From: Eledone cirrhosa
Lineage: Eukaryota
DNA length: 64,000 bases
Direction of reading: 5' to 3'
NCBI GenBank assembly: GCA_964016885.1
Contig: OZ024746.1
Span: forward strand, 744,001 to 808,000
Position 1 is the first letter of the stretch. Each line of letters begins with the position of its first letter. The translations under genes were made by a program, and so were the position numbers. Shown in pieces: positions 13,040 through 55,258 of the stretch. The notes beneath the pieces are model-generated. The model was not told the DNA's origin and ran no database searches. It was given only the letters and a program-made list of their open reading frames with translations.

Positions 13040-13230
13040 GAAAGAGATATAGAGGAAGAATTGACGCCAATACTAGACTGGTACTTGTTTTATCAACCTT
13101 GAACTGGGTGAAAGACAAAGTTGATCTGAGAGGGATTTGAACTGAGACAGCGGAGAGCTGGAAGAAATACCACAAAGCATTCTATCCAATGTTCTAATGA
13201 CCCTGCCAGTCTATCTGACGTTCTAATGAC
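13040..13230 (-). mobile_element. tRNA-derived SINE copy
   Basis: Minus-strand B box GTTCAAATCCC at about 13132-13142. The body resembles other copies at 22700-22880, 40060-40140, 49100-49235 and 59435-59526 (ACTGGTACTT..TTTTATCGACC..GGATGAAAGGCAAAGT). Confidence 0.7.
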
Positions 13231-20300: not shown

Positions 20301-20858
20301 GTCTGGGGGTCATTCCACTCCAATAACAGTCAGTAGGGATGTAGTCTGGGGGTCAACTCCACTCCAATAACAGTCAGTAGGGATGTAGTCTAGGGGTCAT
20401 TCCACTCCAATAACAGTCAGTAAGGATGTTGTCTGGGGGTCAACTCCACTCCAATAACAGTGAGTAGGGATGTAGTCTGGGGGTCATTCCACTCCACTAA
20501 CTGTGAGTAGGGACGTAGTCTGGGGGTCAACTCCACCCCAATAACAGTCAGTAGGGATATAGTCTGGGGGTCAACTCCACCCCAATAACAGTCAGTAGGG
20601 ATATAGTCTGGGGGTCAACTCCACGCCAATAACAGGCAGTAGGGATGTAGTCTGGGGTCAACTCCACTCCAATAACAGTGAGTACGGATGTAGTCTGGGG
20701 GTCATTCCACTCCAAAAACAGTGAGTAAGGATGTAGTCTGGGGGTCATTCCACTCCAATAACAGTCAGTAGGGATGTAGTCAGGGGGTCAACTCCACTCC
20801 AATAACAGTGAGTAGGGATGTAGTCTGGGGGTCATTCTACTCCAAAAACAGTGAGTAA
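14335..20858. repeat. 43/44-bp tandem satellite (CACTCCAATAACAGTCAGTAGGGATGTAGTCTGGGGGTCATTC), roughly 150 units
   Basis: Directly visible periodicity, with variant units (CAACTC, TCAGGAGG, GAAGGG) recurring in blocks. Confidence 0.98.
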
Positions 20859-34515: not shown

Positions 34516-34590
34516 ATGGCGGCTTATGAGGGTCATGTAGCAAAGCGTCAAAAAACTGAAAATAATGGATATGGAATGAACCAAGGAAAA
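34516..34590 (+). CDS. HNRNPL: hnRNP L exon 1 (MAAYEGHVAKRQKTENNGYGMNQGK; NLS-like KRQKTE)
   Basis: AAAATGGCGGC start context. GTAAGT donor at 34591. Phase 0 matches exon 2. Confidence 0.85.
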
Positions 34591-37500
34591 GTAAGTGCTT
34601 GGACATTTTTAGCTTAGATATTTTTGTATATATAAAAAAAAAACTATTAATATATATATATATATATAGAGATATATATAATTCAATTTTAAATTTTAGA
34701 GTGAAAGTCAATTTGTACACACACACACACACACACACACATATGTGTGTATAATGCAAATAATGTTCCAGGAAAATGTGTAAAAAGTGATATTGGTGTG
34801 TGATGTGTTTTTAGTTTTCTTGGCTGGGTTGCAATAAATTAGAAATTGTTAGAGAATTGATTGGAAATTGAAATCTATTTAGTTAATGGAGATATTTTAA
34901 AATATCAGAAAATGTGGAATTTTCCCCTTTTTTTCTCTTTAATTTACTAACCTCTTATTTTCACTTCTTCACATAATATTATATAATTATTGTTTGAGGT
35001 TTCTGATTTCTAATACATTGTTAAATATATAATTGTTTTTTACAATATAGTTTCTTTTAAAAATCTCTTAATATCTTCCATAAAACATTTCAGCAACATA
35101 AATATAGATTATTTATATTTGAAATATTAAATTATAGATATTTGATATTTGTGACCGCATGGCTTAGTGTAAAGAAGAAATGATGGCTACAAACATCTTT
35201 TATAATGTGAAATAAACCTTTATAAACTCTCTTGGAATATTTCCCCCTTTTAATTAGTTTTTAATGTTTTAATATCTAAACCTTAATGACAATTAGTATT
35301 AAGACAGTAACAACGACCTCATATTTTATTTTTCATTTACAAAAGACACAGACATAGCTTTCCTTTCCTCCCTGGTATTTCTCTCCCTATTCTACCTTAT
35401 GACTAATATATTACAAAATAAAGGGCTTTGATGGGGGAGGAAACTGCTCCACAAAATAAAGGGGATCCATCAACTATTTCTCTCCCTATTTCTCATATCT
35501 TATGACTAATATATTTACTTCACAGAAAATAAAGGGGATCCATGAAGTATTATTAAAAGGAATAATATATTTCTACTCCAGAGAAAAAAAGGGATTCATG
35601 AAATATATAAAAAATAAATAAAATGTGATATTTTTCTGTTTCTCTTTTATTAAACATTCCCAACTATTGTTGGTTTATATAAAAATTTCATTTACATTTA
35701 AATTGTTGCACAATTTTCTTATTTGAAATTGTTAGCTTTTGATAATATAATGAATATTTCTTAAAATACTATATATTTTCTTTGTAAAAGAAATATAATG
35801 TAGAGATCACTACGAATGGTTGAATATTTTAAATTTCCATATTAAAAAAAAAAAAATCATTAAAAATGGAGGAGGGGACACTTAAAGGAAGAATATTTTC
35901 TAAATTCTGTGTCAAAAATGTTGCTGGCAATGTGTTTATTATATGGTTGAATGGAAGTTTTGTTGCTGAAGATGTGGCGAGCAACTTATCACAGCCAACT
36001 ACTTGCCAAAGTAGCCATGTTCAACTTGTATCGAAAATAAAATCGATGTGACCTTTTTATTATTTCTTCTCTGTCCTGGCTAAGAAACCATTATTTCTTC
36101 TCTGTCCGATTGTGATCGTCATGGAGGTTTTTAATTTCCACTTGGAACATCTAGGAAATACAATATGTATTTATATCAAATGGGATATGCTGCTTAACAT
36201 TATTGGCGCTAGTTTATATATAGCATCAATCTCCTTTGTTGTAAAATTATAGAATATGGAGATTACGAGTGAAAAAAATGCCAAGAATTTGTCATGTCTC
36301 TCTTTACATATTTGTCTCCATTATTAAAGCTGCTTAAGAAATATTGCAATGATTTAATTTATTTTCCCACTCCCAGTTTTCAATTAATGTCAGGACCTTA
36401 CTCTTAATCCCCCCCCCCCCCCCCCATTATTTCAACTAGTGCTTATTACTAAAATTTTAATTAAAACATTCAACATATTTATTTTTTATTAAACCAGTGT
36501 TGCATTTAATGAGTGCGAGAGATTCTGCCACTAATTTATTTGGGACTAGAAATATTTGAAATGTGTGTAAATCACTGTCCCGTACAAATAGGTTTTTTTT
36601 TAACCGTTAAAACTCCTCTTCAACTAATTGGTTGCACTCGTCATCCCTGTTCTCCTCCCCCTCTCTCTTGTCATACACTGACCAACACTCCTCCTCCTCC
36701 TTACTGCGACTGCGCAAACCTCGGGTTTCCTCTCCTCCTCCTTTTCCTCAGTTTAATGGAGGTGGGATATTACACTAGAAATCTTAACACTCAGCACTGC
36801 TCTCTTTTTATTTTACTTTACAAATATACTCGACTTCCATCGAAAGAGAACAAGAAACAATTGAAATATCTAATACTTGGAAGTTACTCTCTGTTGCCAT
36901 TGTTCAATGCGTAAGATAAAAGTATTTGTCTTGTCATTGTCCTCCGTTTTACATTACTCATCGCCGATGAATCATTAAAATATTACATATGTAAAGTATT
37001 TTAAAAAGATTAGATGTATCTTTTTATTTTTAATAATTTATTGTCAGTTTTAGTGTCCTTGTTAGCTTTATTAAAGATCTACTCACATTCAATCAATCGA
37101 TAGAAATAATTTATTAAATATGAAATTTATATATTAGATTCTATTTTATTTTTAATGATGTTTGTGTCTCAGTTTTAAGAAGGCGTATTATCGAAAGTGT
37201 TAAGCTAGTTTTCGAATGATTTACATTTTTCTACATGAATTTAGTGGTTTTACTTAGGTTTTTAAAATATAAATTCTATATTTTACTAATTTGACAGGAT
37301 AAATTAATGGAAGATCCTCACAAACCATCACCATCACCCGTGGTACATGTCCGTGGTCTCTCTGAGACTGTGGTAGAGCAAGACTTGGTTGATACCTTGC
37401 AGAACTTCGGATGCATTAGGTAAGTTCTCCTCCACATCTTATAGTCTCTTGTTTTACCGTTCATATGTGTGCTTAATGATAGTAAATATTTTTCGAATAG

Positions 37501-40500
37501 GCTATGTAACCGGTAAACCCTAAAGGGACGCAACATACATCGCTATAGCATTTCACCCTATCTTTTGCGTAAAGCCTAACGAATGGTCGGCTAAATGATT
37601 TTATGTTGTTTAACAATAGTGGAAAACGTTAACTGAGGCCGCAAATCGTGGTGTCTGACACTCTGACCGGTTACATAGTCTCTTCAACATTTTTTTGCGT
37701 AGTTATATCATTATTCCTCTCTTTCAGTTATGTAATCATGATGCCAAAGAAGAGACAGGCTCTGGTTGAGTTTGAGGTGAGTTGATTTTATATTGGATTA
37801 TTTGGTGGCTATCATCACTTGGTTAATACATCCATTCACAATTTAAGATTTTTTTTAAACAAGGAGGTAAATTTTGTAAAATGCAACATTAAATTTGAAC
37901 TTATAAAATATACTATAAGGGTAAATATAATGGAATGTTTTAAAACTACAAAATGATCATGTCATTCCTATTACAGGTAAATAAAATATTGCATGAAACC
38001 ACAATCATCATCATCATTTAACGTCTATCTTCTACGCTAGCATGGGTTAGACGAGAATTGAGGCAAGATTGATCGGGTGACTCACATAGCAAAACATTTT
38101 TGAAAAGTACAAAATTAACTGCATCACTTTAATATTACACATTTTGACATTTTCTGGTGACATATATTGTTTACTGTTGTAGGATATGTGTGGAGCAACT
38201 GAATGTGTAAACTATGTTCAGTCCAATCAACTCTATGTTAGTGGTCACCCAGCTTTCTTCAACTTCTCTACTAGTCAGAAGATCCAGAGACCAGGGTAAG
38301 TTATAGTTTATATATCCATGTATAGATCTTGTCATACCATATATATAACTATGTTGCATCTTTCCCCATGAAAATATGATGTAAAAATGAAATAACATGC
38401 AACTTAATAATCTGAATTTAAAATATATATGGTACATTGTAGGTGTAAAATAGTGTGTACTATATATAGGTAGATGACAGGTTTACTGATGTACTACGAG
38501 TAAGGATGAGAGGCGTGAGGTGATCTATATTATAAAGCAATGTGTTGGTGTGAATTGGGATGTTAGAAATGGTTTAGCCTCGTTGGTGCTCAGGAGAAGG
38601 AGGCTTGAAACTATTATGAATGGTTGGAGGTGGAGTGGCTATCAAAATTGATACTTATAGGGTCTCAAAGAAGCAAGAGGGTGCTGTACCAGTTGAAATA
38701 ATGAGCTAATACATGTGGTATCCAATAACTAGTGTATCTGTATAATTGTTGTTAGAAGGCTTTAGAAATGAAACTTCAGGTGTAAAGCTGATGGACCAAT
38801 GGAAAAATGTGAAATTAGGTGGAGATATAGTTGTTTTATGTCCGGAATTAGCTCCACAAATGGCCTCTTAATGAAACAATTACAAGCTCCTTTAAGTATC
38901 AGCTGCTATACCTACCATTTGTAGATCTGGAAAAGGCTTTTGATAGTACCATCATCTTGGGGTCCTTACGAAAACCTAGTCCTCAGCCCCCTTCTATTAT
39001 AGATTTTTTTTTTTTTTTTTTTTTTTATATGTTATCTATTGGAAGCACTTGAGAGGAAATTCTCTTGGAGAAACAGAACATAGAATCAAAAAACTTAAAG
39101 AAGGTGGCCATATTTGATATGTAAAGGAGTTTGTAGGAACTCATGAGTGTAAGGTGTACAGCTACAAGAGGTGTGAATAGTGGACAGTAAGAGCAGAGAA
39201 AGCTACCACAGAAATAGTTTCTGATATGTAGGTGACCTAATTAGCTATGGGTCTATGTTGTAAATGGCAATGATGGTTATTTTCGGGAAAAAGAAAATTA
39301 CAGAATATTGGTGTTTTACAAGCATAATATAACCTTCTTTTTTTCAGTGGCCCAGAAGATATGCGGACTGCAAATCATATTTTGCTATTTACCATTTTAA
39401 ATCCACAATATCCAATAACTGTGGTATGTAAAACTCCTTGTTTTCTCATTTTTGTTTGGAATTGTAGAATTACATAACTTATTCACATATTTTACAGAAT
39501 ATTTTAATACCAAAAATATTGTAGCATGGGTGTATGGTTGAGTTACATTCCAAGAATATAAATATACATGTATATTGTTAATTAGATATATTTTTAATTT
39601 TTCAGGAGGTTATGCATACAATCAGTTCTCCATATGGTCAAGTACAAAGAATTGTTATCTTCAAAAAGAACGGTGTCCAAGCAATGGTTGAATATCCTTG
39701 AGCCATGAATGTCATTTTATTTGATTTTTTTTAAACTGCCTTCTAAATTTATGGTCACTTAACTATTCTTACATCTATATATTGAGCAATAGCATGGAGT
39801 GGGAATGAATGGGTGTCCCTTAATTGGATCAGCCCAGCATGTAACTGGTGACTCTAGCCAGACTACTGGAAGCAATCTATAATGCTGCAAATGTTTGTCT
39901 TGCCTGACAAGACAAAACTAAAGTGACCATAATTTCATTGTTTTGGATGTTTCTGCTGGTTTGTAAATTACTGTGAAATATTTAGAAAGGAATAAGTTAA
40001 ATTGCTTGATTTTTATATATAACTAGCTTGTATACACTGTCTATAATGGTTTGATTTTGAGGAAGGGAGAAGTTAATTAAATCGACCCCAGTGTGTGACA
40101 GGTATGTTTTGACCCCGTAAGGATGAAAGGCAAAGCAAACCACGATGATATTGTATACATTTAGCATATTTGAATATTGAATTAAGTTCATAAAATCAAT
40201 GGTCAGGGTGGGTTTGTATTAGTATGTCACAGATGTCGCTTTTCTTTTTTATACATTTGTAAATATTGGTATATTGATATACACACATCCACATTAAGAA
40301 ACTTGTGGTGTGTGTTATGAGGTTTACCTAATATGTCGTGTACATTTAGCTACAGATAGTAAGACTCTTTTTAATTCTATTACATTACATAATATAAAAG
40401 TACTCATTGGAAATTGTGGTTATTTTCCATTGTTTTATATATATCATCATCATCATCATCGTTTAACGTCCATGTTCCACGCTTGCATGGGTTTGGATAT

Positions 40501-43500
40501 ATATATATCCATTTTACTATTCTTTTCTAAAAGATATATTGTGGTATTCCTTAACTATTTGTACATTTGAAAGTGTTGATCAAGCAAAACGTGCTAAGCA
40601 GGCATTGAATGGTGCAGACATTTATTCTGGTTGCTGTACTCTCAAGATTGAGTATGCTAAGGTAAATTTCCAACTTGTCACATTTCACTCTTACAATTTC
40701 TATACACCAAATTTATCAGACTTTGCCTCTATTTTAAAGCAGTTCCTCACTACACTAATTTCAATATAACATTGAGAGAAATGTAAATCTAAATTTTCTT
40801 TACTCATCCTATTTTTGTGGAACTTTGACCAACAGTGTTATACAAGATTGACATTAACCACAGCTTCTGCTGGGTTCAAATGTTATACAGCATTTGTTTT
40901 GGCTCATTCTGGGTTCCTGCTGAGGTCAACTATCTTTGATGTTAACATTCCAGTCCATTAGTTGATTCTTCATCTATCCCACTCTCTCTAGAAGAGATTG
41001 GTTGTATTTAGACTCCACCAAGGAAGCCATGGATGGAATGTCTTATTAAATTAACTTTCATGTCTGGGTTTTTTTCAATTCAGTTCAATATTTTTATTTT
41101 ATGTTTTTATTTTATATTTAGCCTACAAAACTGAATGTTGTCAGAAATGACAATGAAAGTTGGGACTACAGCAATCCCTCTCTTGGTAAGATGTAGTTTT
41201 TTAACATTTCTAAACTTAAGGACACCAGCACTGTTATTCTCCTTTCTAGAACTGGTGATAATCTTTCTTAACCTTCGCACTATCCAGTTGTAAATGACGA
41301 TAACTTGCTTAACTCTAACCTATTGAATATTGCAAGCCAAAGGCATGGCTGTAGTTTGTAATAATAGTTGCTACTAACATCTTCAACTCCCTTTTCTTCA
41401 ACACTAAGCAACCAAAACAATAAAATTACTTACTTTCTTGGTTTCTTAGTAATGTCTTCTGGTCTTGTTTAGAGTATTCTCTTCTCTTGCTTAATTGGAA
41501 TAGTTTGTGTGCAAGTTTTTCCTTTGATTCCATAACGGTGCTAGTGGACGACAATACTATTAAAGCAGAACTTAAGGAATTGCTCACCTTTGCTTAGCAG
41601 ATAGCCCAGTGGTGGGAAATCTCCTAGTCAAATTTCTCTGGATAGTGTCTTTTAAATTGGTATAATTTATATTGGAATGTTTTGGTTGTGGTGTACTAAT
41701 AAATTTTTCTAGGTATTAAGTTACCTTCTCATTTAAGGTAGGTGGTTTTAAAATTGTTTGTCCAGGGGATTTTCAATCATTAACTTGTAAAACATAAACT
41801 TTTTTAATTGGGAATTTTGCCTAATAGGTTTCTTTTGGGGGTTTGGTTTAAGGGGTAGACTGCATGCATTACAAAAACACAAGTGGCCATTTCAGATTAC
41901 AAAACAAAGCATTTATCTCCAAAATATTTGCATCAATTATAGAATGAAAACCTTTCAATTACAAAACATTTTCTAAATGTCGTGTCAAATATACTTCAAT
42001 AAACAAACATTCCAAATTTCGTTCCAAAAAAAACATGCACATTTTCTCGAGCACAATCATTTGTATCCTTTGTAAATGACGTGATGACCATGTGCTGACA
42101 GGCAGGGAACTGCTATTGTCTGAAAGATGGTGATGGTATGTTAGTGCCCGGTGAAACCACTTGTTTGTGAAGTTATTCACTAGTTTTATTCTGCACTAGC
42201 TTTTTACATTTAGCCAATTTAAAGTTTAAGTGGTTCCCACAATTTTTCTTTTAATATATATATATAATTTAAAATTTTGAACATTAAAAAAATTTGCCAG
42301 CCCTTTTTTAAACAGTTGCGAAGCAAGTTGTTTGCTGTCTGAGATGCCATCCTTTCCAAATCCCAAACATGAAGACAAAGTTATCTATCTTGAAAGAAAA
42401 AAAAAACATTCGAAAACAAAACTTAAAACATAATTACACAAACATTTGGGTTTTTCTGAAACCTATAAATATAAGACAGCCACATTTAATGTAGAAATCT
42501 AGTGGACATATTACCTTAATGTTCAGAAGTTGTACATCTTCCACCTTTCTATCCAGCAAAATTACAAACAGAAGCAGCCATTCTACATCTAGAACAATAG
42601 AAAAAGTTGCAGCATAAACTCAAGCACAGAAAGATATCAACAACATCCACACAACTCATCTGACCGCCCCACAGGTCAGACTGGAGCATTCTCCACCTGC
42701 AGACAGACTTCCCATAACACAGAAGAAGCACTATTCAGTCAGTCAGACAAAAGTACAACAAGCAAACAATATACAATATCATCATCACCACCACCATCAC
42801 TACCAAGCAGATATACTCACCACCGCACAGAACAAAACATAAAGAGGCCAGGTCCACACAAGGTGACACTATACCCTGTAAACCCATCCATCTGTCTGAC
42901 TCCTACGCTTGTTTGCCTTCCTACAACCAAATCTGGTTAGTTTACTGACCTGTGATTCTGTGTGCATTATACAGGGTGTAGGCCAGTGCAGGCCCGGCCC
43001 TCCTGCTACTACTACTACTGCTGCTGGATGATGATGAGGAGGAGGAGGAAAATGTGTGCAGCATCATGTTGATTGAACCATATCAGGCTCAACTACTTGT
43101 GACCAACAACTACTTGTGACTTTAAACCAAATCGTCATGGCTTCTTCCAATGCTGTTATCTCACCAGAAAATCAACTGGTAGATTTTTTATTTTTCTCCT
43201 TATTTTCCAGGATGTCTTTTATTTTAAAAAAATATTTTTTTAATAATTAAGTTTTCTATATTTATATATATATTTTTTTTTACCACTAATTTTTATTGCT
43301 CTGAAGCCATTTAAGATGTTGGCTTGCTTTCAAAATATCTTGACATGCTCATCTAACATAGAAATTAGGCTATTATGAAATTATTTACTTTCTTTACTTT
43401 AATATTTTTATACATTAATCTTTTTATAATGCTGGAACCTTTTTAGAACAAATGGAAGGTGTAGTCATATTAAATGTGATTTCATTACTGTACGCTGGCT

Positions 43501-46056
43501 GACTGCTGCTGCTGTTACTACCAGATTGTATTGCAACAGATATAGTTTGGAAATCAAGGAACATTGAGTTTGTATACAGAGCAATACTGGTTTCATTGAC
43601 AAGAAGCTATAATCTAAATACTTGTACATGTACACCAAACAACACACATAGGCTGGTTTAAGTATAATTATGTAAGCAGAATAAACCCAGTGAAATGTTA
43701 ATTTTTCAATGCATCCAAATTTCAAGTAGAATTTAACATTTTTCGTTTTAAAACTATGGAATTTTTTCTTTTCTTTTCTTTTCTTTTCTTTTCTTTTCTT
43801 TTCTTTTTTTTAAATAAATTAGTGTGGTGTGGATAACTAAATTAAAACTTTCTCAATTGTTCCCTACCTGTCCTTATATTGTACTATGTAATATCTCAGC
43901 CATCTGACAAGCTTTTCCCCTCATAACAAAACATTTGGATTTAATCTTGTTATGCTTCCTTAAATATATTAAAAAAATTTTTACTTCAACCTCTTCACAT
44001 TCAATCGGTTTCACTTTATTAAATGATTTGTGAAATGCAAACTCCTTTCCATTTATTTTTTAAAATGTATGTATAAAAAAAAAACCTTATATATATATAT
44101 ATGCATTAGTTTATATTGCTGGGGTGAATCTTCCGTTCATTGGTAAGTTCTATTTGTAACATCTTTGGGTAGAAAATTTCCAGTTACATTTATTTCGTTT
44201 TTGTGTGTGGGATCATATGTTGACTTCTTTTCCCCTTTTTTTCTTCTTCTCTCCTCCACTCCTTTCTATCTTCATGTGATAATGGTCCAAATCACTGTAG
44301 TGAGTTTTCTTGTACAGAATTAATATTTGCCGGATCTTGCAACTGGGCTTTTCTTTATCCAACTCTTCGTCTCCTTCCACCACAGGACTTCACTACATTC
44401 TTCTTAGGATGTAGATTTTCTTTCTGGAGGACACAAAGCAAGCTGTTTTATTACATAAGTGCATGAACTGGTTAAATCTTAAAATCATTGGGATATATTA
44501 AACATTTTTTGAAAGGACTAAAGGACTAGGTGAATATGAAATAGTTCCATTTATGAAAATGCACAACTTGTGCTTGATTTTAATACATATTCCGTGCCAA
44601 ATCTCGTTGGTGAAGCTAATTTGCTCACTACATCTACAAATTATTTGCCCAATTTATGTTAGTTTTTATATTCACACATTCGAATGTTTACGGGTTTTTT
44701 AATACCTTTTTTTTTTCTTTTTCTTTTTTTCTTTTTTTTTTTTATTATACACTAAAGTTTTGTTTCGTAATTCAGGATTATAATTTTAGTTAGGTTTTTA
44801 TTGCTATATTTTCTAACAATAATTAAAAATGGTTGGTAATTTCTATTGATCGATCTTATGCCAGCCAAAATCTTAGTAAATTCTTTCAGCTGAGAAAGTT
44901 AAAACTCTAGTATACTAAAAAGGCAACAGCAGTCAGTTTATCTGCGGTTTGTTTGGCAAACTAGTAACTTTACTGTCTGCCGCTTTCCTTGCTTGCTCTG
45001 AGACTTATCTCACCTGTGTCAATTTGTTTCAGGTAAGAGTCCTGTGGTTGCTAAAAATCAGCCTTTGCTGCAAGATCCGCGCTATGCACCAGGGCCCACT
45101 CCCTATGGTGAGTGTCCTCAATCACCAGGTGAAGTATTGTTCTAAAGCTCCATTTTCTTCCTAGTTGTTGTCACATCTCTTAATTGCTCTAGTTTTCAGT
45201 TGCATAAAGTTTAAAATAGAAGAGCTTCTCTGTCTTGGTTACTAGAATTTAAGCAAGTTATTATAAACTCAGTCTATTTGTTTTGACATTTTGGTGCCAG
45301 TTTTCCATACTGACATGGGTTGGGTTGCAGAGAGGACTACATGGGTCACACGTGGATTAAATGGTGCATATAAGCAAATTTTTATTATGACCTAAAATTT
45401 TTAATGTAAAATCTTCAAATATTTTGAAACTTTGCCAATTTGTGGTGTTTAGCTTCACAGAAAATGGCAGGCAGTTGATATTGTGGTATTTTTTTAATAT
45501 GCCTTGTGTATCAATCTCTGCATGATTATCACATTTACATACGTTTAAATTTTGTGACTATATGTCATTTCCTGTGATATCTTGCCTAACTTTGTGGATT
45601 TGAATCTGGTTGGTTTTCAAAGAATTGAAATATACAACCTTATATTGCTAATTAAGCTTGATTAGGAATAACTTGAAAACCTTGTGGTTTACTATAAATA
45701 TATGTATGAAAATTCCTCTTTTATGAGTTTATAGTAACTTTTTTCCCCCCTCATTTACGAGTTTATAGTAACTTTTTTCCCCCCTCATTTACTTTGTTCA
45801 GTTTTTTAGTATTTCATATTAGCAAACTGTACAAAATGAAATACATTTGTGGGCTAGAATGAAACGAAATTCTTTAGTTTTCAAATTAAGTAATTTTGCA
45901 CAGAAATTATTTATTAGAACCATTTAATATTTCGTTATTTGCTTGCTGAATTTAATTCCAATTGTGATCGAAACTCTAATTTGCCATAATATTGATTTGC
46001 TTCATTTTATTCATTTGTTTATTTTTCATATCTAAAGAAGTTGGACTCTTGGGTAA

Positions 46057-46104
<48 letters not shown>

Positions 46105-46911
46105 CTTCTCCTCTCTCTTTCTCCTACTTCCATTTTTATTTTCTTGGATGATTGCTTTTCTAGTGCTTGCTAGTCGTGTCATCTAAGATGTTGTAAAGTT
46201 ACTGTTGTGCTACCTAGTATGTTTTGACTACTATTCCTTTCGTTGGCATTAACACAGTCTATAATTTTCTGGGGTTGGGCTTTGGGCTAGATATAGTTGG
46301 TACTGGACTTTTTTTTTTTCTAGTGTCATCCTCATTGTTTGTGTTTTGTGGCAGCTTTGTCTTTTGCCACACCCCTCTCTCACTCCTATACCTCTATAAA
46401 TATGTGTATATATATTTTTAGATACATACATACATACATGAAATATAAATGGAAATGGGTTTTGTTTATACTGCTGCTTGCTCTGGTTCTTTTCATGTAT
46501 CATGTGAAATGGATTCACAGAGAAAGTTGGTATTATGTGTGGCCATCAACTTCTGAGATTTGTTTATGAATTTTTTAATTTATTCTTCACTAAAATCATC
46601 CATTCAGTTGCCCTCTTTTGTAGATTCTATTGAGAAATGGAGTTTTGCTATCGTTTTAATTGGATTGTTACAAATGTGCAAATTTTGTCTTTTACATTGT
46701 ACTGAGTGAGCTTCCTACCATTTCTGCAATGAAGTACTATTGAAAATGTTGTCTATAATAATGGTTGATTCGGATTTTTTTTATTTTTATTTTTTATTTT
46801 TTTTTCCTTCTTTTTTAAAAAAGTTTTTGAGTGACATTGAATAAATCCCATAATTATTCACTTCCACGAAAATAGAATGAAGATAATTAAAGGCTAGATG
46901 ATGCTTAATAG

Positions 46912-46962
<51 letters not shown>

Positions 46963-49900
46963 TTTGGGAGATTTATAATTCCTGCCTTGTTTTGTCTTGC
47001 CAATCTCCATTTTAATTTGCTTTTTTTTTTTTTTTTTTTTTTTTTTTTGCATTAGTCTTCATTCTTATCTTTTGCTTTCACTCTTAATACACAATGTGCC
47101 ACTAATTTTCCTTGCATGCTTTAATAAGTCACTCCATTGAAAGCACTTTCAATAATTAGCAATAAACCTTTTTTTTATATGAAATAATGGAAAATGTTTT
47201 TGAGCTGCTTTTGTGTAACTTTACTGGAGAATGGCATCACCAGTAAATGGCAAACATTTAGAATTCCAGTATCATTCATCATCTGGTGTTAATAGTGAAA
47301 TGGATCATGATTTAGAAAATATTTTGGTAATGCTGTGTTGCAATGAGTTTTTCTCATGGATAGAAGGAAACTTCAGTTGGAAACTATGAAGAAGAGATTT
47401 GAGGAATTTAACCCAACCCTTCAGTGACTATTTTTAATAAAGTACACTCCATTTCAATTGGGGTTTACTAAAATTATTTTGTTCCCAAGATAGTAATGTA
47501 ACATGGTTTTTATATAAAATTTGTAGGTTGATTTTACTTTAAATAGGAACCTTTTAAAATGGGTAGTTTTATTTCATAGAACTTTAGTGAGTTTGGTCAT
47601 GTTGGTATCAAAAATGTGAATACCTATTTTCATGTCACTGGTTTTTCATCCTTGAACCATTAAATATTTTGATTTTATTTCTGGTGAAACTAACCCTTTA
47701 GGGATATGTTTCTCATGAAATACGTATTTCAGATTATTTTATTTAAATGTGTTACTAAAATATCTTTTAATGTGACAAACCTTTTAGATAAAATTTTTTG
47801 ATTTAGATCTAAACAATGATGATGATTCTAAATTGGACAGTTTTATGACAGGAGGGTTGATGTTTTAAAATAGTTTTAATTAAAATTTGCTATTTTTATT
47901 ACTAAATCTTTGGATCATAACTTAATAGAAATCTTATTTAAAATTGTTGGCTGTGGGTTTTGCTGCTTATTTTTACTTCTTGCCATTCTTTCATGCTTAC
48001 TTTCCAGACATGGCATTTTATTTTAAATCATTTTACAAATTGAGATCTAATTAAAATTGATTTGGTGAAATATTTTTACATTTCTCTTAACTGCTTATAT
48101 CGATGTTTGTGTTGACATATTATTAGTTGTTATAAATTTAAATTTTAGGATCTCATCCAGATGTTCGAAGAGGTGGTGGTGGAGGTCCTGGTATGGGTCC
48201 CCCACCTGGTGGTCATGGATATGGTACACCAGGTCCCATTTATGATGGTGATAACTATGACAACTATTGTGGTGGTGGTGGAGGAGGTGGCCGTGGTGGT
48301 TATGGTATGCAAACTGAGCGTTATGGACCTGGCAGTACTGGAATTCTTGTAAGTATTTGTGTAGATAATGTTCAACAGTTACCTTTTGACAGTCCTATTT
48401 TCTGAGTTTGGAGAAACTCTAGCCATTCTCTACACTTGTATGTTGAGCATGTGGCCATGAAGGGGTAGTGAAATACATGTGACCATGTTTGTAGAATAGC
48501 ATGTCTGGAGTTGAGGCAAGATTTTGTGTACTGATTTTGACATGGAGCCTATTGATTCTTAACATTCTAATGGCTTTGGTAATTCAAATTTCTTCATCCA
48601 CTTATTCCTGTGGGGGCAGTTCTTAAATGTGACCATTTCAGGCCCATCGCCAGTTTTTACGGCATGGAATGGAGAATGTCTTGCTAATGTTTCATACCGT
48701 ATGTTAAGAGTTAATGGTTCTTTAAAATGGAGCAATTGAAAACATTGATCTGATTGTCTAAATCAAAAGTTCAATAAGCAGGAGAATGTAATTGCGTATT
48801 GATTTTAACTATCTTTTCAACTATTGGAATTAAGGAAATCTAAGAGATATAAGCTGTTTTTAGTTGGAGGATGTTTAGATTTTATTGAAATTTAAATAAA
48901 GTTGTGCATTATCAATTTATTAAAATCCAATGAGTCTAGTTGAATGCATTTGTGGTGCCATATTGTTATATGGCGTTTCTAGGGCTTAAACCTGGCAGAG
49001 CCCATCTCTTTAGATCTGAGTACAGTAGGTTTCTTCAAGAGTAGTGTGAATGGAAGTGTGAATGAAAGAGATATAGAGAAAGAATGGAAGTGTGAATGAA
49101 AGAGATATAGAGAAAGAATTGATCCCAGCACTTGACTGGTACTTCTGTTATCGACCTGGAATGGATGAAAGGCAAAGTTAAACTTGGAAATGAAACGAAT
49201 ACCATAAAGTTTTCTAGCGTTCTAACGACTTGTGTGGTTCAATAGCAATCAGTAATCGGTACATGTGGGGTAATGAAATAATTAATTTTTGTAAATCATT
49301 TCAAATTCTTCATTAATTAATTGAAATATTGTATTTTATTAGAGGTACATTCATGAGAGTTTGCTAAAGTCTAGGGTTGTTTTTTTATTTCCTCCTAGGA
49401 CCGTTATGGTGCTCCACCAATGCCACCATATGAAGATCCTAATTCCCGTATGATGGGCCACAACCAAAGTGGTGGTGGCGCCAATGGTCCACAACAAGGA
49501 GCAGTACTTATGGTTTATGGCCTCAATATGGATAAAATTAACTGTGATTCAATTTTCAATTTGTTCTGCCTTTATGGTAATGTGGTACGGGTGAGTGTTC
49601 ATTTTATTCTTATAGAATTTAAATTTTTTAATTGAACTTTGAATTATATATAATTGTTTGTTTTATTTTATTTATTAGATTAAGTTCTTAAAAAGCAAAG
49701 AAGGCTCAGCAATGATCCAAATGGGCGATGGTCAAGCGGTGGAGCGAGTCATTCAAAATCTCAACAGCTGCTACTTTCTTGGTAAAAAGATACAATTGGG
49801 GTTAGTATTTTTTGGCTTATTTTCTTGGTGCGTTGTTTTGATACAGCAAGTGACCCTGCATTTGTTGGAGACTGAACAACTGGAGCCCCTAAATGCAACA

Positions 49901-52900
49901 GTGTAGGGGACTTGCTAAACTACATGCTTGTTTGTAAAAGTTATACTCCAATAATGAGAACTAGGCATATTTCTAAATACCTAGAGATTATTGGCGATTT
50001 TCAAATTTAATTGAAAACTGGGCATTGGCGTGTTTCATTAGAAATATACTAATAGAAGGGTTTATAACAGTTGAATCAGAAACTACAAGAATTTCAGAGT
50101 TGGTGCAGTAATGCACCAGCTTCAGCAATCAGAAGGGAGATAATGGAGCTAAACTACTTGGATGCTGATGGGTTATAGTGATGACATGAATGGTTCATTC
50201 ATGAATATATATTTGGTATTAGGAAATAATAGTAATAAAAGGATGAGTGAGAGACCTTTTTAGCATTCGCATTAATTTTCAAATGTCATGTTTATCTGTT
50301 CGCATTATTTTGAGTTAATCGTACTCAATAGGGTTATCAATTTTATTTGTTTGTAATTTTCTTAATTTTCTATGTGCAGTCTTGAAATTTTGTCAGATGT
50401 TTAAATATCAATAATTTACAATTATATAATTTTACCCGATTTTTTTTATTTTTTTTTTATTAAATTTGACTTTTATGGGCAGGTGAAATTAAGAGGCATT
50501 TGAAGTATCAACCAGGTGCAAATACTGGTTTAATTTTAAATACGTTGTTTTCGGCATAATACATGATATATAAGGATCACTAAACCTTATACCAGTGTTC
50601 CAGTAATTCCAGTCTTGGAAATTTTTTTTATACCAAACATAATATTTACGGTAAAAAATGCTTGCATTTCCGCAGCATTCGCCAAACAGATCGGGTTTTC
50701 CTCGATTTGAAATCTTGTTGGGCATATCGATTAATCTCTTCTGCTACAACTTCAAAGAAAGTTTGTGGTAAAAAACAAACAGAAATAATCCAGTGCTTTA
50801 GCATCGGGAGCTAATGAGTATTGTGGACCAGTATTTTGAATAAAATCAGGAACATATATTGGTGTGGTATTTTTCAACCACGTTGCTGTAATATTTTCAA
50901 TGGTGTTCTGGAGATCTCCTTCGTTTTCACTTTCAAAACAACAATCATCGTCGGATGAAATTTCAGAAATGTAAACATCTGATTCATTTGAAGATAAATC
51001 ACTAATATTATCGTTTGATTCTTGTTTATTCTGAATGTCATCGTATGTAAAACCTTCAAAGTCGGTATCGTTACTTTCACAAGCCATGTTGATACACAAA
51101 AGATCTGTTCTACTTTTAACGTTAAAAAAACACGTTGTTTTAAGTTGTTTCGCTATGTTAAGTGTTAATTTTCATACTAAGGACCTAATCTCGAATTGAC
51201 GAGATTTTGATGATGGTATTTATTTTTAGAAGGATATTTTAGTGCGAGTGTTATTGGGCGGTTTGAACACTAAAGGGTTAAGGCCTTCAATTTTTTTCCT
51301 TGTGAAAATGTTATTTTCATAATGGTGGGGAGAAAAGAATTATATTGGCAAGGGTGGAGCTTTGAAATAGATTTTTCTACTAAAATTATTCTGTATCTAT
51401 TTAAAATCTTTGCAGCAGTGATATACTTTTCCTTGTGATAATTTTGAGTTTCTTTATTACAGATATTCTAAGCAAGCTTTTCTGCAGGATGTTCCCAATC
51501 CACACACTCTTCCAGATGGATCGCCATCGTTCAAAGATTTTATGGGCAGTAGGAACAACCGTTTCACTAACCCGGAAGCTGCAAGCAAGAATCATATCCT
51601 TTTTGATTTTATATTAATTTCTGGTTATATGATGAAAAACTGTTTCCACATATAGTGTTCGAACTTTTAAGTGCATTTCCTTATCTATTAGATTTTTAGA
51701 ATGATCTAATTGAAATAATGCCCCTGGTTCTTTGAAACAGTCTTCTTCACCTACTTATTCCTGGGAGGGTCATGTACCTTCCTGTAGGTCCTCTCGGAAA
51801 CAACTGTCTTAAATTGGTCTGACTGGATCTCTGAGCAAGACCTGTAGAGCTGGTAGATGTTAATTTCCTCTCGGTCTTCTGCCAGTTGGTTTTACCCGTA
51901 TTCTTTCCTGTGACATTTTAACTACATGTCCGTAATAGCAAAGCTGTGATCTCTCAATTGAAACAAGTAGTATCTCTACCTGGAATGGCTCTCTCTCTGA
52001 GCCACTTGTTTTAAATCAAAATCTTCCAATATTCCAGCATAATTTTATATATGTTTAATGAAATAATGATTTTCTTCATTGTCCACATATTCCTGAGAGA
52101 GTTGTGGGGCAGTGTCCTATCAGAAGTGACCATATCCAACCATCTTCCTCTGGGTTTCCTGCCAGTTGGTTTTGCCCATAAAATCTGTCCAGTGATTCTT
52201 TCCTGAAACAATCTAAACACATGCTTTAGAATCAAAGCTGTGATCTATCAATTCGGAGAAGTAACAGCTCTACCTGGAGTGACTGATCTCTGAGCTACAC
52301 TCTATCGAGTAACATTACTCCAAAGACCCTTCAGAGGAATCCCATTTCAGCTACTTATATTCATGATAGTATTTTTAGTCAATCTTCAAAATTCTTCATT
52401 AATTAGTTATTTGTTTGGCTTTAGTTTCTAAGATTTGTGTTTGTCCTTAACCTGTATTAAGTATCCAAGGGCCTGCTAAAGTACTACACTATTTCAATGC
52501 TCCACCCAACATAACAGAGGATGAAATCTGTCAGGTTAGTTAATATTTATTTTTGGTGTGATTACTATATTGTGTACTAGCAGTGGTACCTGGCGTTGCA
52601 CGAGATGAGGTATTTTGGAACGCGGGCCGCCAACAGACCTAATCTTGGAGAAAATAAACCGAATACTCTGATGGCTGGATAATCTTTAAGATTTCCTCGA
52701 TGAAGCAGGAAAAATGCAGGTTTTCACCTAAGAGATCAAGAAAATGAATTTGTTTTTATGTGCATAATATGCCTTAAAATTTTGGGAAAATCGGCTAGAC
52801 GTAACGCCTCCAAAAAGTCCTGAAAAAATGAAGTTTTTCACCTAATGCGGGCCCTAGGCCATAAAAAGTTGGATTTTCTTTTGCTCATGGTATGAAGAAG

Positions 52901-55258
52901 AGACTGACTAATACATAGTTACAATTTCAAGGAAATCAGTCCGACGTAACGCCTCAAAAAACCCCTGAAAAAACGCAGTTTTAGATCAAAACGTTGAAAC
53001 ATAAGTAATACACATGTAAAGTTTGAAAAAAATCGGTTGGGTTTTAGGGATTCAAACTCAGACAGACATCCTCAGGGAAGTGACGTAATACAGACAGATA
53101 TTATAAGGGCGCGACGTTATATGTATCTATCTAAAAAGAGAAAGACTAAGAATTATAGAGAGAGCTCACTTAATGCGGTAGCTAGGGCATTGAAAATTTG
53201 AATTTTTTTTTATCAGAACACTCCCTGAAACATAAGTATTACATGTGTAAAGTTTGAAAACAGTCGGTTGGATGGTTATCGAGTTTTAGGGATTCAAACT
53301 CACACACACAGACATCCTCAGTTTTATATATATAGATAACGTTAATTAATTAACAATTTCTCTTGGTTGTCTCCGTTGATTTTAAAAAAAAAAAAATGTT
53401 TAGATTACATATTTATTACATATTACATTTATTTTATAATTATGGGATTTCTTGTAATGTACTTTGTCGGGTATGTTTTTTAGTGTCTAAAGAAAATTAT
53501 TGCATTCACCGGAGATAAATGGGGGGAGGGGTAACATTGTTATAAGGCCTGAGTATTGTTAAAATGTTGTTGAATTATTTACTAAACATCCATGAGAGAC
53601 TGAGTAGTAAAATGTGAGATTTTGGTCAATAACATGTTACGGGTTTACAAACAAATGTCTATGCCTATTCTACAGGAGGGGGTGGGGGTTTCTATATACA
53701 CAAGGATATATGGTATAAAAAAAAAAACGTATTAATTTATTTGCATCATCTTGCTAGCTCTAATTGAGTAAATATATATTACAGGTGTTTACAGATGCTG
53801 GAGCAAAAAGTCCTGTAAGGATTAAACAGTTTCCTTCCCGCAGTAAGTATCTAATTCCTTTGTGTAGCTGTGTTTGTTTTTTTGTGGGAAAGTGGGGTTA
53901 ACTCCTCTTAATGTCCTGTACTACATGGAACCACATTAGCAAGACATTCTTGAAAAGTACAAAACAGCGTTAAAGAATTAATGGCTTTACTCTATGGAAT
54001 GGTGTCCAGCCATAGAAACCAAGCCAAAATAAGTTCATCTGAACTGGCTTGTCTCACTATGGGACAACTCATCTAACCCATGCTAGCATGGAAATATGGA
54101 TGTTAACTGATAATGATGACTAATACTGCACATTTTCAGTAACTGAATGGACATTTGTCAGTCTCCATTTGTGTTATGAGTGGATTAGACTGAGCATTTC
54201 ACACATGCCCTTACCTTTATGTTATATGGGAGGAGGTGACAAGGCTGGCCTTTTGTAATACAGCTATAGTTGACCTGAGGCTGTGATATTAACACTTCTT
54301 TATGGGCTTATTTGTTTTATGCTGTATGCTAAACTATTAGAGAATGTTAAACAATGTATTGGGTAAGCTAATTAGTTTCACTTGATATTTGTTTCAGCGG
54401 AAAGAAGTTCTACTGGGCTGGTTGAATTTGAAACCAAATCTGATGCTATTGAAGGCCTTCTGGCTTGTAACCATCAAAGTATTCCTAATCCTAGTAAGCA
54501 CTCCTTTTCTTTTTCTACTTTAACAATGTGTTTGAATGTGTATTGTCTGATTATAAATATGTGGGATTAGATTGGTTTGGAAGAAATTGTAAATATATCC
54601 TAAAGAAGAAAATGTTTATTTATCCCAAAGTTATTGTCTTTCTTGACATAAATTTTCCTATCTGAAGTTGATTTTGTTTATCTAAAACTCAATGTGTCAA
54701 ATCTTGTCCTCCTTACACTAGATATTAAGGAAGTTATTACTAAATACTTCCAAATTGAGTGAGTTTTCAAAATGAAATAGAAATATGGAGAGGATTAACA
54801 GTGCTCCTTTGTAATGTAGTATATTGTCTATGGTTAACTTTGACCAAGAGTTGGCTAGTGAGAAATGTTATGAAAGTGGTGGAGTGAATTCAGATGCCTT
54901 CAAATGTTCATTATCTTGTTTTCAGGTTTTAAAGAAACTAAATTTATTTGCAATTTACTATGCTAAATTCTGTGATATACTTACAACTGATAAAACATGT
55001 AAACATCTAGTTAAGGCACCTGCATTGTCTTAGTGAAATATACTTGCTTGCCCAAATATTTTAGTTTTTTAGTCCCTAGGGATATAAGCCATTTCTTGGG
55101 CTTGTTTGAAAGTAAGAGGTTACCAATGAAAGGGTTTCTTTTGTATGACAGGGACTCATTCTTCACAGTATTGTTTTTGTTTTTTTTTGTTCATTTCAGA
55201 TGGCAAGAATCCATTTGTCTTCAAGCTGTGCTTCTCTCAGACCCCTATAATGGGTTAA
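34516..55258 (+). CDS. HNRNPL: Heterogeneous nuclear ribonucleoprotein L (hnRNP L / smooth-like); full coding span, 17 exons, 562 aa, 4 RRMs
   Basis: Manual splicing gives an uninterrupted 1689-nt ORF with hnRNP L signatures: DPHKPSPSPVVHVRGL, MPKKRQALVEFE, NFSTSQKIQRPG, RIVIFKKNGVQAMVEF, ALNGADIYSGCCTLKIEYAKPTKLNV, VLMVYGL...FNLFCLYGNV, SRNNRFTNPEAASKNRI, ERSSTGLVEFE, KLCFS. Confidence 0.95.
37298..37419 (+). CDS. HNRNPL: hnRNP L exon 2 (RRM1 start)
   Basis: ACAG acceptor, DKLMEDPHKPSPSPVVHVRGLSE..., GTAAGT donor, phase 2. Confidence 0.95.
37728..37776 (+). CDS. HNRNPL: hnRNP L exon 3
   Basis: TTTCAG acceptor, YVIMMPKKRQALVEFE, GTGAGT donor. Confidence 0.95.
38183..38295 (+). CDS. HNRNPL: hnRNP L exon 4
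   Basis: GTAG acceptor, DMCGATECVNY...GHPAFFNFSTSQKIQRPG, GTAAGT donor. Confidence 0.95.
39348..39423 (+). CDS. HNRNPL: hnRNP L exon 5 (RRM2 start)
   Basis: TTTCAG acceptor, NHILLFTILNPQYPITV, GTATGT donor. Confidence 0.95.
39606..39691 (+). CDS. HNRNPL: hnRNP L exon 6
   Basis: EVMHTISSPYGQVQRIVIFKKNGVQAMVE; ends at the U12 donor ATATCCTT. Confidence 0.93.
39692..40564 (+). other. HNRNPL: U12-type (minor spliceosome) AT-AC intron
   Basis: 5' ATATCCTT, branch site TTCCTTAAC at 40547-40555, ends TAC at 40564. Joining restores AMVE-FESVD. Confidence 0.93.
40565..40661 (+). CDS. HNRNPL: hnRNP L exon 7
   Basis: FESVDQAKRAKQALNGADIYSGCCTLKIEYAK, GTAAAT donor. Confidence 0.95.
41122..41185 (+). 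CDS. HNRNPL: hnRNP L exon 8
   Basis: TTAG acceptor, PTKLNVVRNDNESWDYSNPSL, GTAAGA donor, phase 1. Confidence 0.95.
41860..42890 (+). promoter_or_regulatory. CA-rich intronic cluster, candidate hnRNP L binding region (densest at 42545-42870)
   Basis: Dense ACA/CAC/ACAA motifs and strong A/C bias on the sense strand in otherwise T-rich introns, immediately upstream of a candidate poison exon. Confidence 0.7.
42975..43178 (+). other. HNRNPL: Candidate poison cassette exon (premature stop, NMD-inducing) of hnRNP L
   Basis: Branch-like TACTGAC near 42943-42949, TACAG acceptor ending 42974, in-frame TGA at 43070-43072 after phase-1 joining to exon 8. Putative weak donor CTG/GTAGAT at 43179, so the 3' end is less certain. 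Confidence 0.62.
45033..45107 (+). CDS. HNRNPL: hnRNP L exon 9 (75 nt, symmetric phase 1-1, linker)
   Basis: TTTCAG acceptor, GKSPVVAKNQPLLQDPRYAPGPTPY, GTGAGT donor. Confidence 0.82.
48149..48348 (+). CDS. HNRNPL: hnRNP L exon 10 (Gly/Pro/Tyr-rich linker)
   Basis: TTAG acceptor, SHPDVRRGGGGGPGMGPPPGGHGY...GSTGIL, GTAAGT donor. Confidence 0.9.
49399..49590 (+). CDS. HNRNPL: hnRNP L exon 11 (RRM3 start)
   Basis: CCTAG acceptor, QGAVLMVYGLNMDKINCDSIFNLFCLYGNVVR, GTGAGT donor. Confidence 0.96.
49679..49800 (+). CDS. HNRNPL: hnRNP L exon 12
   Basis: IKFLKSKEGSAMIQMGDGQAVERVIQNLN...KIQLG, GTTAGT donor. Confidence 0.95.
50255..51281 (-). mobile_element. Internally deleted piggyBac-like DNA transposon in intron 12
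   Basis: The right end reads TTAACCCTTTAGTGTTC on the minus strand (TTAA target at 51278-51281); the left end CCTTTTTAGCATTC is a degenerate inverted copy. ORF 50752-51099(-) has an acidic N-terminus plus W...F...GP...LDYFCLFFT, typical of PGBD-like transposase N-termini. Confidence 0.7.
51463..51593 (+). CDS. HNRNPL: hnRNP L exon 13
   Basis: TACAG acceptor, YSKQAFLQDVPNPHTLPDGSPSFKDFMGSRNNRFTNPEAASKN; ends at the U12 donor ATATCCTT. Confidence 0.95.
51594..52460 (+). other. HNRNPL: U12-type intron with AT-AA termini
   Basis: 5' ATATCCTTTT, branch TCCTTAAC at 52444-52451. Only splicing after TTAA (52460) restores KN-RIQGPAKVLHYFNAP. Confidence 0.85.
51770..52385 (-). mobile_element. Two tandem decayed RTE LINE 3' fragments inside the U12 intron
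   Basis: Homology to 29450-29935 (CCAGTTGGTTTT.CCC.TA, GCTGTGATCT..CAATT, CTCTACCTGGA) occurs twice. Confidence 0.75.
52461..52534 (+). CDS. HNRNPL: hnRNP L exon 14 (RRM4 start)
   Basis: RIQGPAKVLHYFNAPPNITEDEICQ, GTTAGT donor. Confidence 0.92.
52576..53337 (+). mobile_element. Non-autonomous Helentron/HINE-like element in intron 14
   Basis: Starts ACTAGC...CCTGGCGTTGCACG and ends TTTTATATATATAGAT. Internal sub-repeats GACGTAACGCCTC (x2) and AAACATAAGTA...AAAGTTTGAAAA...TCGGTTGG (x2). Confidence 0.55.
53785..53842 (+). CDS. HNRNPL: hnRNP L exon 15
   Basis: TACAG acceptor, VFTDAGAKSPVRIKQFPSR, GTAAGT donor, phase 1. Confidence 0.9.
54398..54493 (+). CDS. HNRNPL: hnRNP L exon 16
   Basis: TTTCAG acceptor, TERSSTGLVEFETKSDAIEGLLACNHQSIPNP, GTAAGC donor. 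Confidence 0.95.
55200..55258 (+). CDS. HNRNPL: hnRNP L exon 17 (last coding exon)
   Basis: TTTCAG acceptor, NGKNPFVFKLCFSQTPIMG, stop TAA at 55256-55258. Confidence 0.93.

What the first reader, a model, noticed from the sequence alone, without database searches (positions are those of the whole stretch)
42844..43002. Predicted RNA stem that buries the poison-exon 3' splice site
Seen: CTATACCCTGTA (42869-42880) pairs with TACAGGGTGTAG (42970-42981), 12 bp with one G-U, covering the acceptor AG at 42973-42974. GGCCAGGTC (about 42846-42854) can also pair with GGCCCGGCC (42991-42999) at 8 of 9 positions. The branch point and pyrimidine tract lie in the loop, and the 5' arm abuts the end of the CA cluster. 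Inference: a structural switch in which hnRNP L loading on the CA tract, or ADAR editing, opens the stem and exposes the poison exon.
Basis: partly seen in the sequence, partly recalled or inferred. Interest (0 to 1): 0.72.

Follow-up and report, generated by a model that had tools for sequence, protein, structure and literature searches.

The report
Folded acceptor in octopod hnRNP L
An octopod hnRNP L gene has an extra splice acceptor, used in the RNA of related animals, behind a CA-rich tract in the intron where vertebrates keep their self-limiting exon; the RNA there is predicted to fold shut in more than one way, which likely damps the site rather than switching it on and off.

Summary
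The 12-bp stem over the AG is in the sequence (11 Watson-Crick pairs, 1 G-U) and is rare for one chosen site (79 of 20,000 shuffles), but the region folds no better than shuffles (z -1.3, +1.9). The gene is octopod hnRNP L. The acceptor at 42975 is real: the upstream exon joins it in 2 of 4 RNA runs, both from other organisms. No run joins it onward, so a last exon or retained intron is as likely as a poison cassette. The CA tract is the gene's densest and is conserved. The proposed switch is not supported by folding: the branch point is paired, not looped out; a rival fold within a few kcal/mol also buries the AG when the 5' arm is blocked; modelled editing does not expose it. Covariation is untested. 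Unexpected: the last 35 intron bases share 20 letters in three blocks with an acceptor listed for human and mouse HNRNPLL, more than any of 4,842 control AG sites. Verdict: a likely ancient hnRNP L feedback acceptor, probably damped by redundant structure; the single-stem switch is a minority reading.

The parts
34516..55258 (+). hnRNP L gene, 17-exon model, 562-residue open frame
   Evidence: 93.6% identical to Octopus sinensis hnRNP L isoform X2 over 577 columns
41122..41185 (+). Upstream exon closing RRM2; phase-1 donor shared by both outcomes
42566..42865 (+). CA-rich cluster, likely hnRNP L landing site
   Evidence: 56 CA, top of 54 non-overlapping windows; 15 substitutions in 479 nt over 42525-43003 against 41 in 478 nt of other listed intron pieces of run X18, p 3e-4; binding is inferred
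42846..42864 (+). 5' strands of the outer helices of fold A (4+4+3+3 bp, partners 42982-42999); holds CA motifs at 42854-42860
   Evidence: predicted
42869..42880 (+). 5' arm of the 12-bp stem (fold A)
42920..42928 (+). 5' strand of rival fold B, pairs with 42975-42982
   Evidence: predicted
42930..42957 (+). Hairpin that pairs the candidate branch point (A 42948): 42935-42940/42945-42950 plus 42930-42933/42954-42957
   Evidence: predicted; branch point from motif only
42940..42974 (+). Intron end sharing three blocks (9+5+6 letters) with the acceptor listed for human and mouse HNRNPLL
   Evidence: (paper supplement, compared by eye)
42958..42974 (+). Local 7-bp hairpin of fold B that also covers the AG
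   Evidence: predicted
42970..42981 (+). 3' arm of the 12-bp stem, with acceptor AG 42973-42974
   Evidence: acceptor use in runs X15 and X18
42975..43187 (+). Alternative exon; in-frame stop TGA 43070-43072 after 32 codons; 3' end unresolved (43187 is where the X18 contig ends; candidate donor GT at 43179)
45033..45107 (+). Next coding exon; acceptor of the productive splice

Best explanation
This is an alternative splice acceptor of an octopod hnRNP L gene, used in the RNA of related animals, that likely serves as the gene's self-limiting switch: hnRNP L would load on the CA cluster just upstream and favour this weak site, giving an RNA that stops after RRM2. The 12-bp stem is one of at least two predicted folds that cover the AG, and a separate hairpin is predicted to pair the branch point. 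Together they would keep the weak site mostly closed and raise the amount of hnRNP L needed, rather than act as one stem that snaps open. Shown: gene, arms, acceptor use, in-frame stop, CA density, conservation of the block. Predicted: all folds. Inferred: binding, feedback, any effect of structure. My odds for the fate of the product: last exon with a truncated protein 0.45, decay-triggering cassette 0.35, intermediate with the downstream intron retained 0.2.
For: Gene identity; one match in the genome for the RRM3 exon. Joint 41185->42975 in runs X15 (depth 111.7 against 857.8 for the productive contig) and X18 (24 against 26). Same phase-1 boundary at which 5 of 120 listed short relatives from vertebrates leave the frame into a shared tail and 18 of 120 from flies enter a tail without RRM3-4; human truncation also lacks RRM3-4 (PMC6885243, passages). 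CA cluster top in the gene. Block 42525-43003 has about a third of the substitution rate of other laid intron pieces. Intron end matches the HNRNPLL acceptor listed in PMC11162794 at 20 letters; 0 of 4,842 control AG sites reach 19. AG is predicted paired in either fold; folds differ by -4.9 to +2.0 kcal/mol over 8 contexts. Branch-point hairpin in 23 of 27 contexts, 64 of 20,000 shuffles.
Against: The joint is not seen in the same-species RNA run X1 or in X19. Whole-region folding is not better than shuffles. Opening cost ranks 4th of 18 acceptors, so this site is not unusually closed. The G/U-rich acceptor is the only such stretch in an A/C-rich neighbourhood and will pair with something (shuffled duplex mean -15.3, the lowest of 18 acceptors). 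Conservation was measured for the whole block and cannot separate arms from CA motifs or splice signals. The hairpin and HNRNPLL comparisons were made after looking.
Confidence: 0.5

Rival explanations
1. Single-stem switch of the MALT1 kind: hnRNP L binds CA motifs in the 5' strand of the rod (42854-42869), unwinds it and exposes the acceptor.
For: 12-bp helix is rare for a chosen site; CA motifs lie inside the rod and blocking 42855-42870 drops the stem from 0.97 to 0.04 and the opening cost from 6.7 to 4.4 kcal/mol; fold A dominates 18 of 27 contexts; precedent PMC9348792 (passages). Nearest-neighbour models ignore protein-protein recruitment and may overrate fold B.
Against: After that block the AG stays 0.94-0.96 paired; the four other blocks raise the cost to 7.6-9.9. 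The stem needs the outer helices: 0.00-0.01 with pair span capped at 150 nt, and it forms in 1 of 6 folds that end before the outer arm is complete, so it would form late during transcription.
Confidence: 0.22
2. The stem is chance complementarity between a CA-rich tract and a UG-rich weak acceptor; selection acts on CA motifs and splice signals, and structure plays no part.
Against: The longest AG-covering helix of the 16 AG acceptors tested falls on the one regulated acceptor; three separate predicted elements cover AG or branch point; a predicted structure is also listed upstream of the HNRNPLL poison exon in human and mouse.
Confidence: 0.22
3. ADAR editing of the rod controls the acceptor, tying hnRNP L level to editing activity.
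For: The animal is an octopod by protein similarity, a group with heavy editing, where edited A's favour A-C mismatches (PMC8891338, passages); the rod has one A-C mismatch (42850) and a paired A in a UAG context (42980). Single modelled edits at 42871, 42880 or 42980 drop the stem to 0.03-0.22.
Against: One difference only (C>T), no A>G, in same-species RNA contigs over 41050-45200 (weak, contigs drop rare variants). Modelled edits leave the AG at most 0.13 unpaired; editing 42850 raises the opening cost from 6.7 to 9.5; editing 42973 would destroy the AG. The likely direction is closing, not opening. Inosine was modelled as G, which understates I-U weakening (own knowledge).
Confidence: 0.06

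Closest known systems
Vertebrate HNRNPL exon 6A / HNRNPLL poison exon autoregulation (Rossbach et al. 2009; paper not held, known here from review passages in PMC7547044, PMC7764535 and PMC6885243)
   Same: Same gene family, same intron position after RRM2, upstream CA-rich tract, in-frame stop, product lacking RRM3-4; intron end shares 20 letters with the acceptor listed for HNRNPLL.
   Different: Mollusc; no downstream junction found, so it may be a last exon rather than a decay-triggering cassette; binding and feedback untested; the passages I read describe no stem for HNRNPL exon 6A.
MALT1 exon 7 stem-loops unwound by hnRNP L (PMC9348792)
   Same: Stem over a 3' splice site with CA motifs in one strand; hnRNP L as candidate opener.
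   Different: There the structure is probed and local; here it is predicted, spans 110-154 nt, encloses a branch-point hairpin, has a rival closed fold, and lies in hnRNP L's own RNA.
Concealed branch sites upstream of poison exons, e.g. SF3B3; HNRNPLL is listed in supplementary Tables S2 and S4 (PMC11162794)
   Same: Predicted hairpin pairing the branch point of an unproductive exon.
   Different: Hairpin is 6 bp plus 4 bp, shorter than the 14-17 bp of SF3B3; conservation of the pairs untested; molluscs were not among the six species.
BRD2/BRD3 poison exons controlled by complementary regions (PMC10789245, abstract)
   Same: RNA structure tuning an unproductive exon.
   Different: There the arms lie in the flanking introns and loop the exon out; here the arm overlaps the acceptor.
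Drosophila smooth short isoforms (NCBI protein entries)
   Same: Leave the main frame at the same boundary and lack RRM3-4.
   Different: Tails are about 90-130 residues and unlike the 32-residue tail here; their DNA, CA content and regulation were not examined.

Membership tests
HNRNPL exon 6A-type autoregulatory poison cassette | Host gene is hnRNP L family | tested here: met
HNRNPL exon 6A-type autoregulatory poison cassette | Lies in the intron after the exon that closes RRM2 | tested here: met
   (phase 1); 5 of 120 vertebrate entries diverge at this boundary; that those tails are the exon 6A product is inferred
HNRNPL exon 6A-type autoregulatory poison cassette | CA-rich cluster directly upstream | tested here: met
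HNRNPL exon 6A-type autoregulatory poison cassette | Acceptor used in RNA and stop codon brought in frame | tested here: met
   joint in 2 of 4 runs, neither from the window's species label; TGA 43070
HNRNPL exon 6A-type autoregulatory poison cassette | Cassette: a donor splices on to the next exon, leaving a junction behind the stop | tested here: inconclusive
   no such joint in 4 of 4 runs; X18's productive contig is unbranched at the next acceptor and its exon contig ends at 43187; X15's runs on to 44582; contigs show presence, not absence. Leans against.
HNRNPL exon 6A-type autoregulatory poison cassette | hnRNP L binding promotes inclusion; product is degraded by NMD | not testable with these tools
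   needs knock-down, CLIP and NMD inhibition
MALT1-type stem unwound by hnRNP L | Stem covers a 3' splice-site signal and holds CA motifs in one strand | tested here: met
   (prediction only)
MALT1-type stem unwound by hnRNP L | Occupying the CA strand frees the splice signal | tested here: not met
   AG unpaired at most 0.21 in 5 of 5 blocks; fold B takes over; thermodynamic model only
MALT1-type stem unwound by hnRNP L | Structure and unwinding shown by probing | not testable with these tools
   needs SHAPE/DMS or NMR
Concealed branch site upstream of a poison exon (Li et al. 2024) | Branch site paired in the fold of the last 120 intron bases | tested here: met
   (mean paired 0.84); branch site from motif only; motif matches at 2 of 15 other acceptors scored 0.79 and 0.86
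Concealed branch site upstream of a poison exon (Li et al. 2024) | At least 7 continuous pairs with at most 1 mismatch | tested here: inconclusive
   6-bp hairpin followed by pairs to another partner
Concealed branch site upstream of a poison exon (Li et al. 2024) | Pairs conserved or covarying across species | not tested
   only block-level substitution counts are in hand; base-level differences in the arms are not
ADAR-edited regulatory duplex | A-to-G differences in RNA at duplex adenosines | tested here: inconclusive
   none listed in same-species contigs; no raw RNA reads among the 23 runs listed
ADAR-edited regulatory duplex | Editing exposes the acceptor | tested here: not met
   9 edit sets in 2 contexts

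The most novel reading that the evidence does not exclude
The hnRNP L feedback acceptor is one ancestral element kept since the mollusc-vertebrate split, still recognisable base by base at its branch point and AG. Each lineage closes it with its own RNA fold and ends it its own way: a decay cassette in vertebrates, a last exon giving an RRM1-2 protein in octopods and flies. In octopods the CA tract that binds hnRNP L doubles as the strand that hides the site.
Probability: 0.3. Interest if true: 0.75.

Novelty: new variant of a known kind. Interest (0 to 1): 0.52.

Why it matters
Feedback splicing of hnRNP L is described in mammals; I found no paper on it in a cephalopod or other invertebrate in the searches (open-access library only). 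If the acceptor is homologous, it is an intronic regulatory element that has outlasted the split of molluscs and vertebrates, and it makes two questions testable: whether unproductive exons of splicing factors are inherited or re-invented, and whether structure or protein binding sets their threshold. The stem alone, if real, would be one more case of a known mechanism.

Tried and rejected
Rfam: 0 matches in the window. Repeat origin of the arms: 42600-43220 has one match in the genome, itself (that search skips simple repeats). Metagenome scan for both arms: 14 loci, none homologous, only pattern-sized hits in contigs of 48-68% G+C: chance. Earlier findings of this scan: none by place, words or sequence. 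Truncated cephalopod isoform in protein collections: none among the 120 listed of 134 short relatives, best identity 82%, and none of 144 held proteins shares a 6-mer with the tail; weak evidence. Alternative acceptors 42941 and 42982: no joint listed. Depth arithmetic for the exon length in X15 gives 12-220 nt depending on the background assumed: not informative. Temperature: at 13-37 C the stem is 0.95-0.96 with span 300, 0.05-0.68 with span 200 and 0.00-0.01 with span 150; no thermometer claim. In some searches the branch position was mislabelled 42949; corrected to 42948. The first exon model had four wrong edges, fixed. PMC12179342 and PMC2689934 (passages) held nothing on this element. 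Covariation of the arms remains open.

Full report
Observation. The two arms are at the stated places. 42869-42880 pairs with 42970-42981 at 12 of 12 positions (11 Watson-Crick, 1 G-U) and covers the AG at 42973-42974; 42846-42854 pairs with 42991-42999 at 8 of 9 with an A-C mismatch at 42850/42995. In the minimum-energy fold two 3-bp helices lie between them, giving a 26-bp interrupted rod, called fold A here.

Chance. For one chosen AG the helix is uncommon: 20 of 2,336 AGs between 21 and 63.7 kb have one of 12 bp or more within 150 nt, and the 15 other AG acceptors of the gene have 5-8 bp. With the acceptor fixed and the upstream 150 nt shuffled, 79 of 20,000 reach 12 bp; the duplex energy, -21.7 against -15.3 +/- 2.3, is reached by 32 of 3,000. 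Against this, a constitutive acceptor (48149) has the same z, -2.76 against -2.79, among 18; the region folds no better than shuffles (24 of 200; 196 of 200); and the cost of opening -10..+2 is 6.7 kcal/mol, 4th of 18 acceptors. The stem is more than typical chance, not decisively so.

The gene. Seventeen exons from 34516 to 55258 give a 562-residue frame. Single exons match RRM families and solved hnRNP L structures best. The closest named protein is Octopus sinensis hnRNP L isoform X2, 93.6% identical to the model, so the animal is an octopod by inference. The RRM3 exon has one match in the genome. The stem lies in intron 41186-45032, after the exon that closes RRM2.

The exon. Contigs of four runs were laid on 41050-45200. 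All four show spliced joints, so all hold RNA. The upstream exon joins 42975 in X15 (organism F, depth 111.7; productive contig 857.8) and X18 (24; productive 26). The joint is absent from X1, which carries the window's species label, and from X19. In frame the exon gives 32 codons and a TGA at 43070. No run joins the exon to 45033. In X18 the productive contig passes the 45033 acceptor unbranched and the exon contig ends at 43187, past the only fair donor (GT 43179); in X15 one contig runs from 42974 to 44582. Assemblers prune weak branches, so a cassette is not excluded, but a last exon or a retained downstream intron fits at least as well. No common poly(A) hexamer lies before 43469, which counts against a last exon.

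CA cluster and conservation. 42566-42865 holds 56 CA dinucleotides, against a median of 16 and a next-best window of 31. In X18, 42525-43003 has 15 substitutions in 479 nt, the four other intron pieces listed outside the exon 41 in 478 (Fisher p 3e-4); X15 shows a weaker contrast over a longer piece (70 of 1,052 against 127 of 1,336, p 0.013). Only pieces of 80% identity or more are laid, 178 pieces were not shown, and the counts cannot be split between arms, loop and CA motifs. Covariation is untested.

Homology. Of 120 listed short relatives (134 found), none is from a cephalopod; 5 vertebrate entries leave the frame at this same boundary into a shared tail, and 18 fly entries enter a tail that lacks RRM3-4. 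The human exon-included product also lacks RRM3-4 (PMC6885243, passages). In the supplement of PMC11162794 (stored cut; rows seen) HNRNPLL has one human and one mouse row of a concealed branch site, and Table S4 places the structure upstream of poison exon '5a'. By eye, those intron ends share with 42940-42974 a 9-letter block over the branch point, a 5-letter block and the last 6 letters, 20 in all. Under the same three-block score 0 of 4,842 AG-ending 40-mers of the window reach 19 (best 18), nor any of 476 with a branch-like motif, of 89 with CAG plus CTGA, or of 15 real acceptors (best 15). A pattern of 19 of the shared letters occurs once in the 3.0-Gb genome, here, and its reversed control never; it was built after looking, so it shows specificity only. 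That the HNRNPLL exon sits in the matching intron is from recall and was not tested. About 9 of the 20 letters are plain splice consensus.

Mechanism in the model. Fold A has probability 0.5 or more in 18 of 27 contexts. It depends on the outer helices: 0.00-0.01 with span capped at 150, and 1 of 6 folds that end at 42985 or 42995. A rival, fold B, pairs 42920-42928 with 42975-42982 and closes a 7-bp hairpin 42958-42964/42968-42974 over the AG; the best folds with and without the stem differ by -4.9 to +2.0 kcal/mol in 8 contexts. Forcing CA-bearing stretches single-stranded, as bound protein would, removes fold A in 4 of 5 blocks but leaves the AG at most 0.21 unpaired; the opening cost falls only for the block 42855-42870 (to 4.4) and rises to 7.6-9.9 for the others. 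The most constant element is a hairpin that pairs the candidate branch A 42948, 0.5 or more in 23 of 27 contexts, 64 of 20,000 shuffles (post hoc). So the branch point is not in an open loop, and the model predicts closed-to-closed exchange, not closed-to-open.

Editing. X1 lists one difference (C>T) and no A>G, weak evidence because contigs drop rare variants, and no raw RNA reads were offered. With inosine modelled as G, 9 edit sets in 2 contexts leave the AG at most 0.13 unpaired; editing the A-C mismatch raises the opening cost from 6.7 to 9.5. A-C mismatches are favoured sites in cephalopods and editing them can reinforce structure (PMC8891338, passages). If ADAR acts here it more likely closes the site.

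Known systems. Reviews describe hnRNP L binding upstream of exon 6A in intron 6 to promote its inclusion, and cross-regulation of hnRNP LL (PMC7547044, PMC7764535, passages; the original paper was not available). CA specificity: PMC7708053 (passages). hnRNP L unwinds a stem over the MALT1 exon 7 acceptor (PMC9348792, passages; review PMC11802352, passages). Concealed branch sites: PMC11162794 (abstract, sections 6, 19, 20, term search and supplement rows). BRD2/BRD3: PMC10789245 (abstract). Searches for an invertebrate or cephalopod account gave none: 0 papers for cephalopod + hnRNP L + splicing, and nothing relevant in the listings. The library lacks most subscription papers.

Verdict. It works like the vertebrate hnRNP L feedback exon and sits at the same place, but the cassette step is not shown, so I file it as a new variant. 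Best reading, 0.5: feedback acceptor damped by redundant folds. Single-stem switch 0.22, chance stem 0.22, editing control 0.06. Interest 0.52, carried more by the possible deep homology of the acceptor than by the stem.

Noticed in passing
window 39692-40564 and 51594-52460: Two minor-spliceosome-type introns in the gene, with AT..AC and the rarer AT..AA ends; the edges keep the frame and match the Octopus protein.
   Followed up: partly
window 45108-45128 and 46038-46052: Alternative donor 21 nt downstream and a 15-nt microexon, seen as loose ends in runs X1, X15 and X19; already present in named Octopus isoforms.
   Followed up: yes
window 42659-42680: A 7-bp hairpin inside the CA cluster whose 5' strand repeats the branch-point hexamer and whose 3' strand is its perfect complement, so it could also pair with the branch point at 42945-42950.
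   Followed up: no
window 43192-43210: A strong-looking acceptor (17 of 19 pyrimidines, CAG) only 32 nt after the candidate donor at 43179; no joint to it is listed. Unexplained.
   Followed up: partly
window 43007-43050: Ladder of triplet repeats inside the alternative exon ending in a purine-rich run; runs X15 and X18 lack 6 nt at 43027, which keeps the frame.
   Followed up: no
window 41189-45032: In same-species run X1, intron depth is 0 at 41189-41327, about 3 to 41890 and about 15 from there to the next exon, suggesting partly retained intron RNA.
   Followed up: no
proteins P0102-P0136: Eighteen fly smooth/hnRNP L entries leave the frame at the same boundary into a long tail without RRM3-4, a possible fly counterpart of this acceptor.
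   Followed up: partly
window 1-11991, 13178-13875, 14338-20857: Satellite arrays: 48-bp unit x254, 29-bp unit x24, 43-bp unit x150.
   Followed up: no
window about 22946 and 27303-27330: Local inverted repeats giving 23-bp and 18-bp helices upstream of the gene.
   Followed up: no
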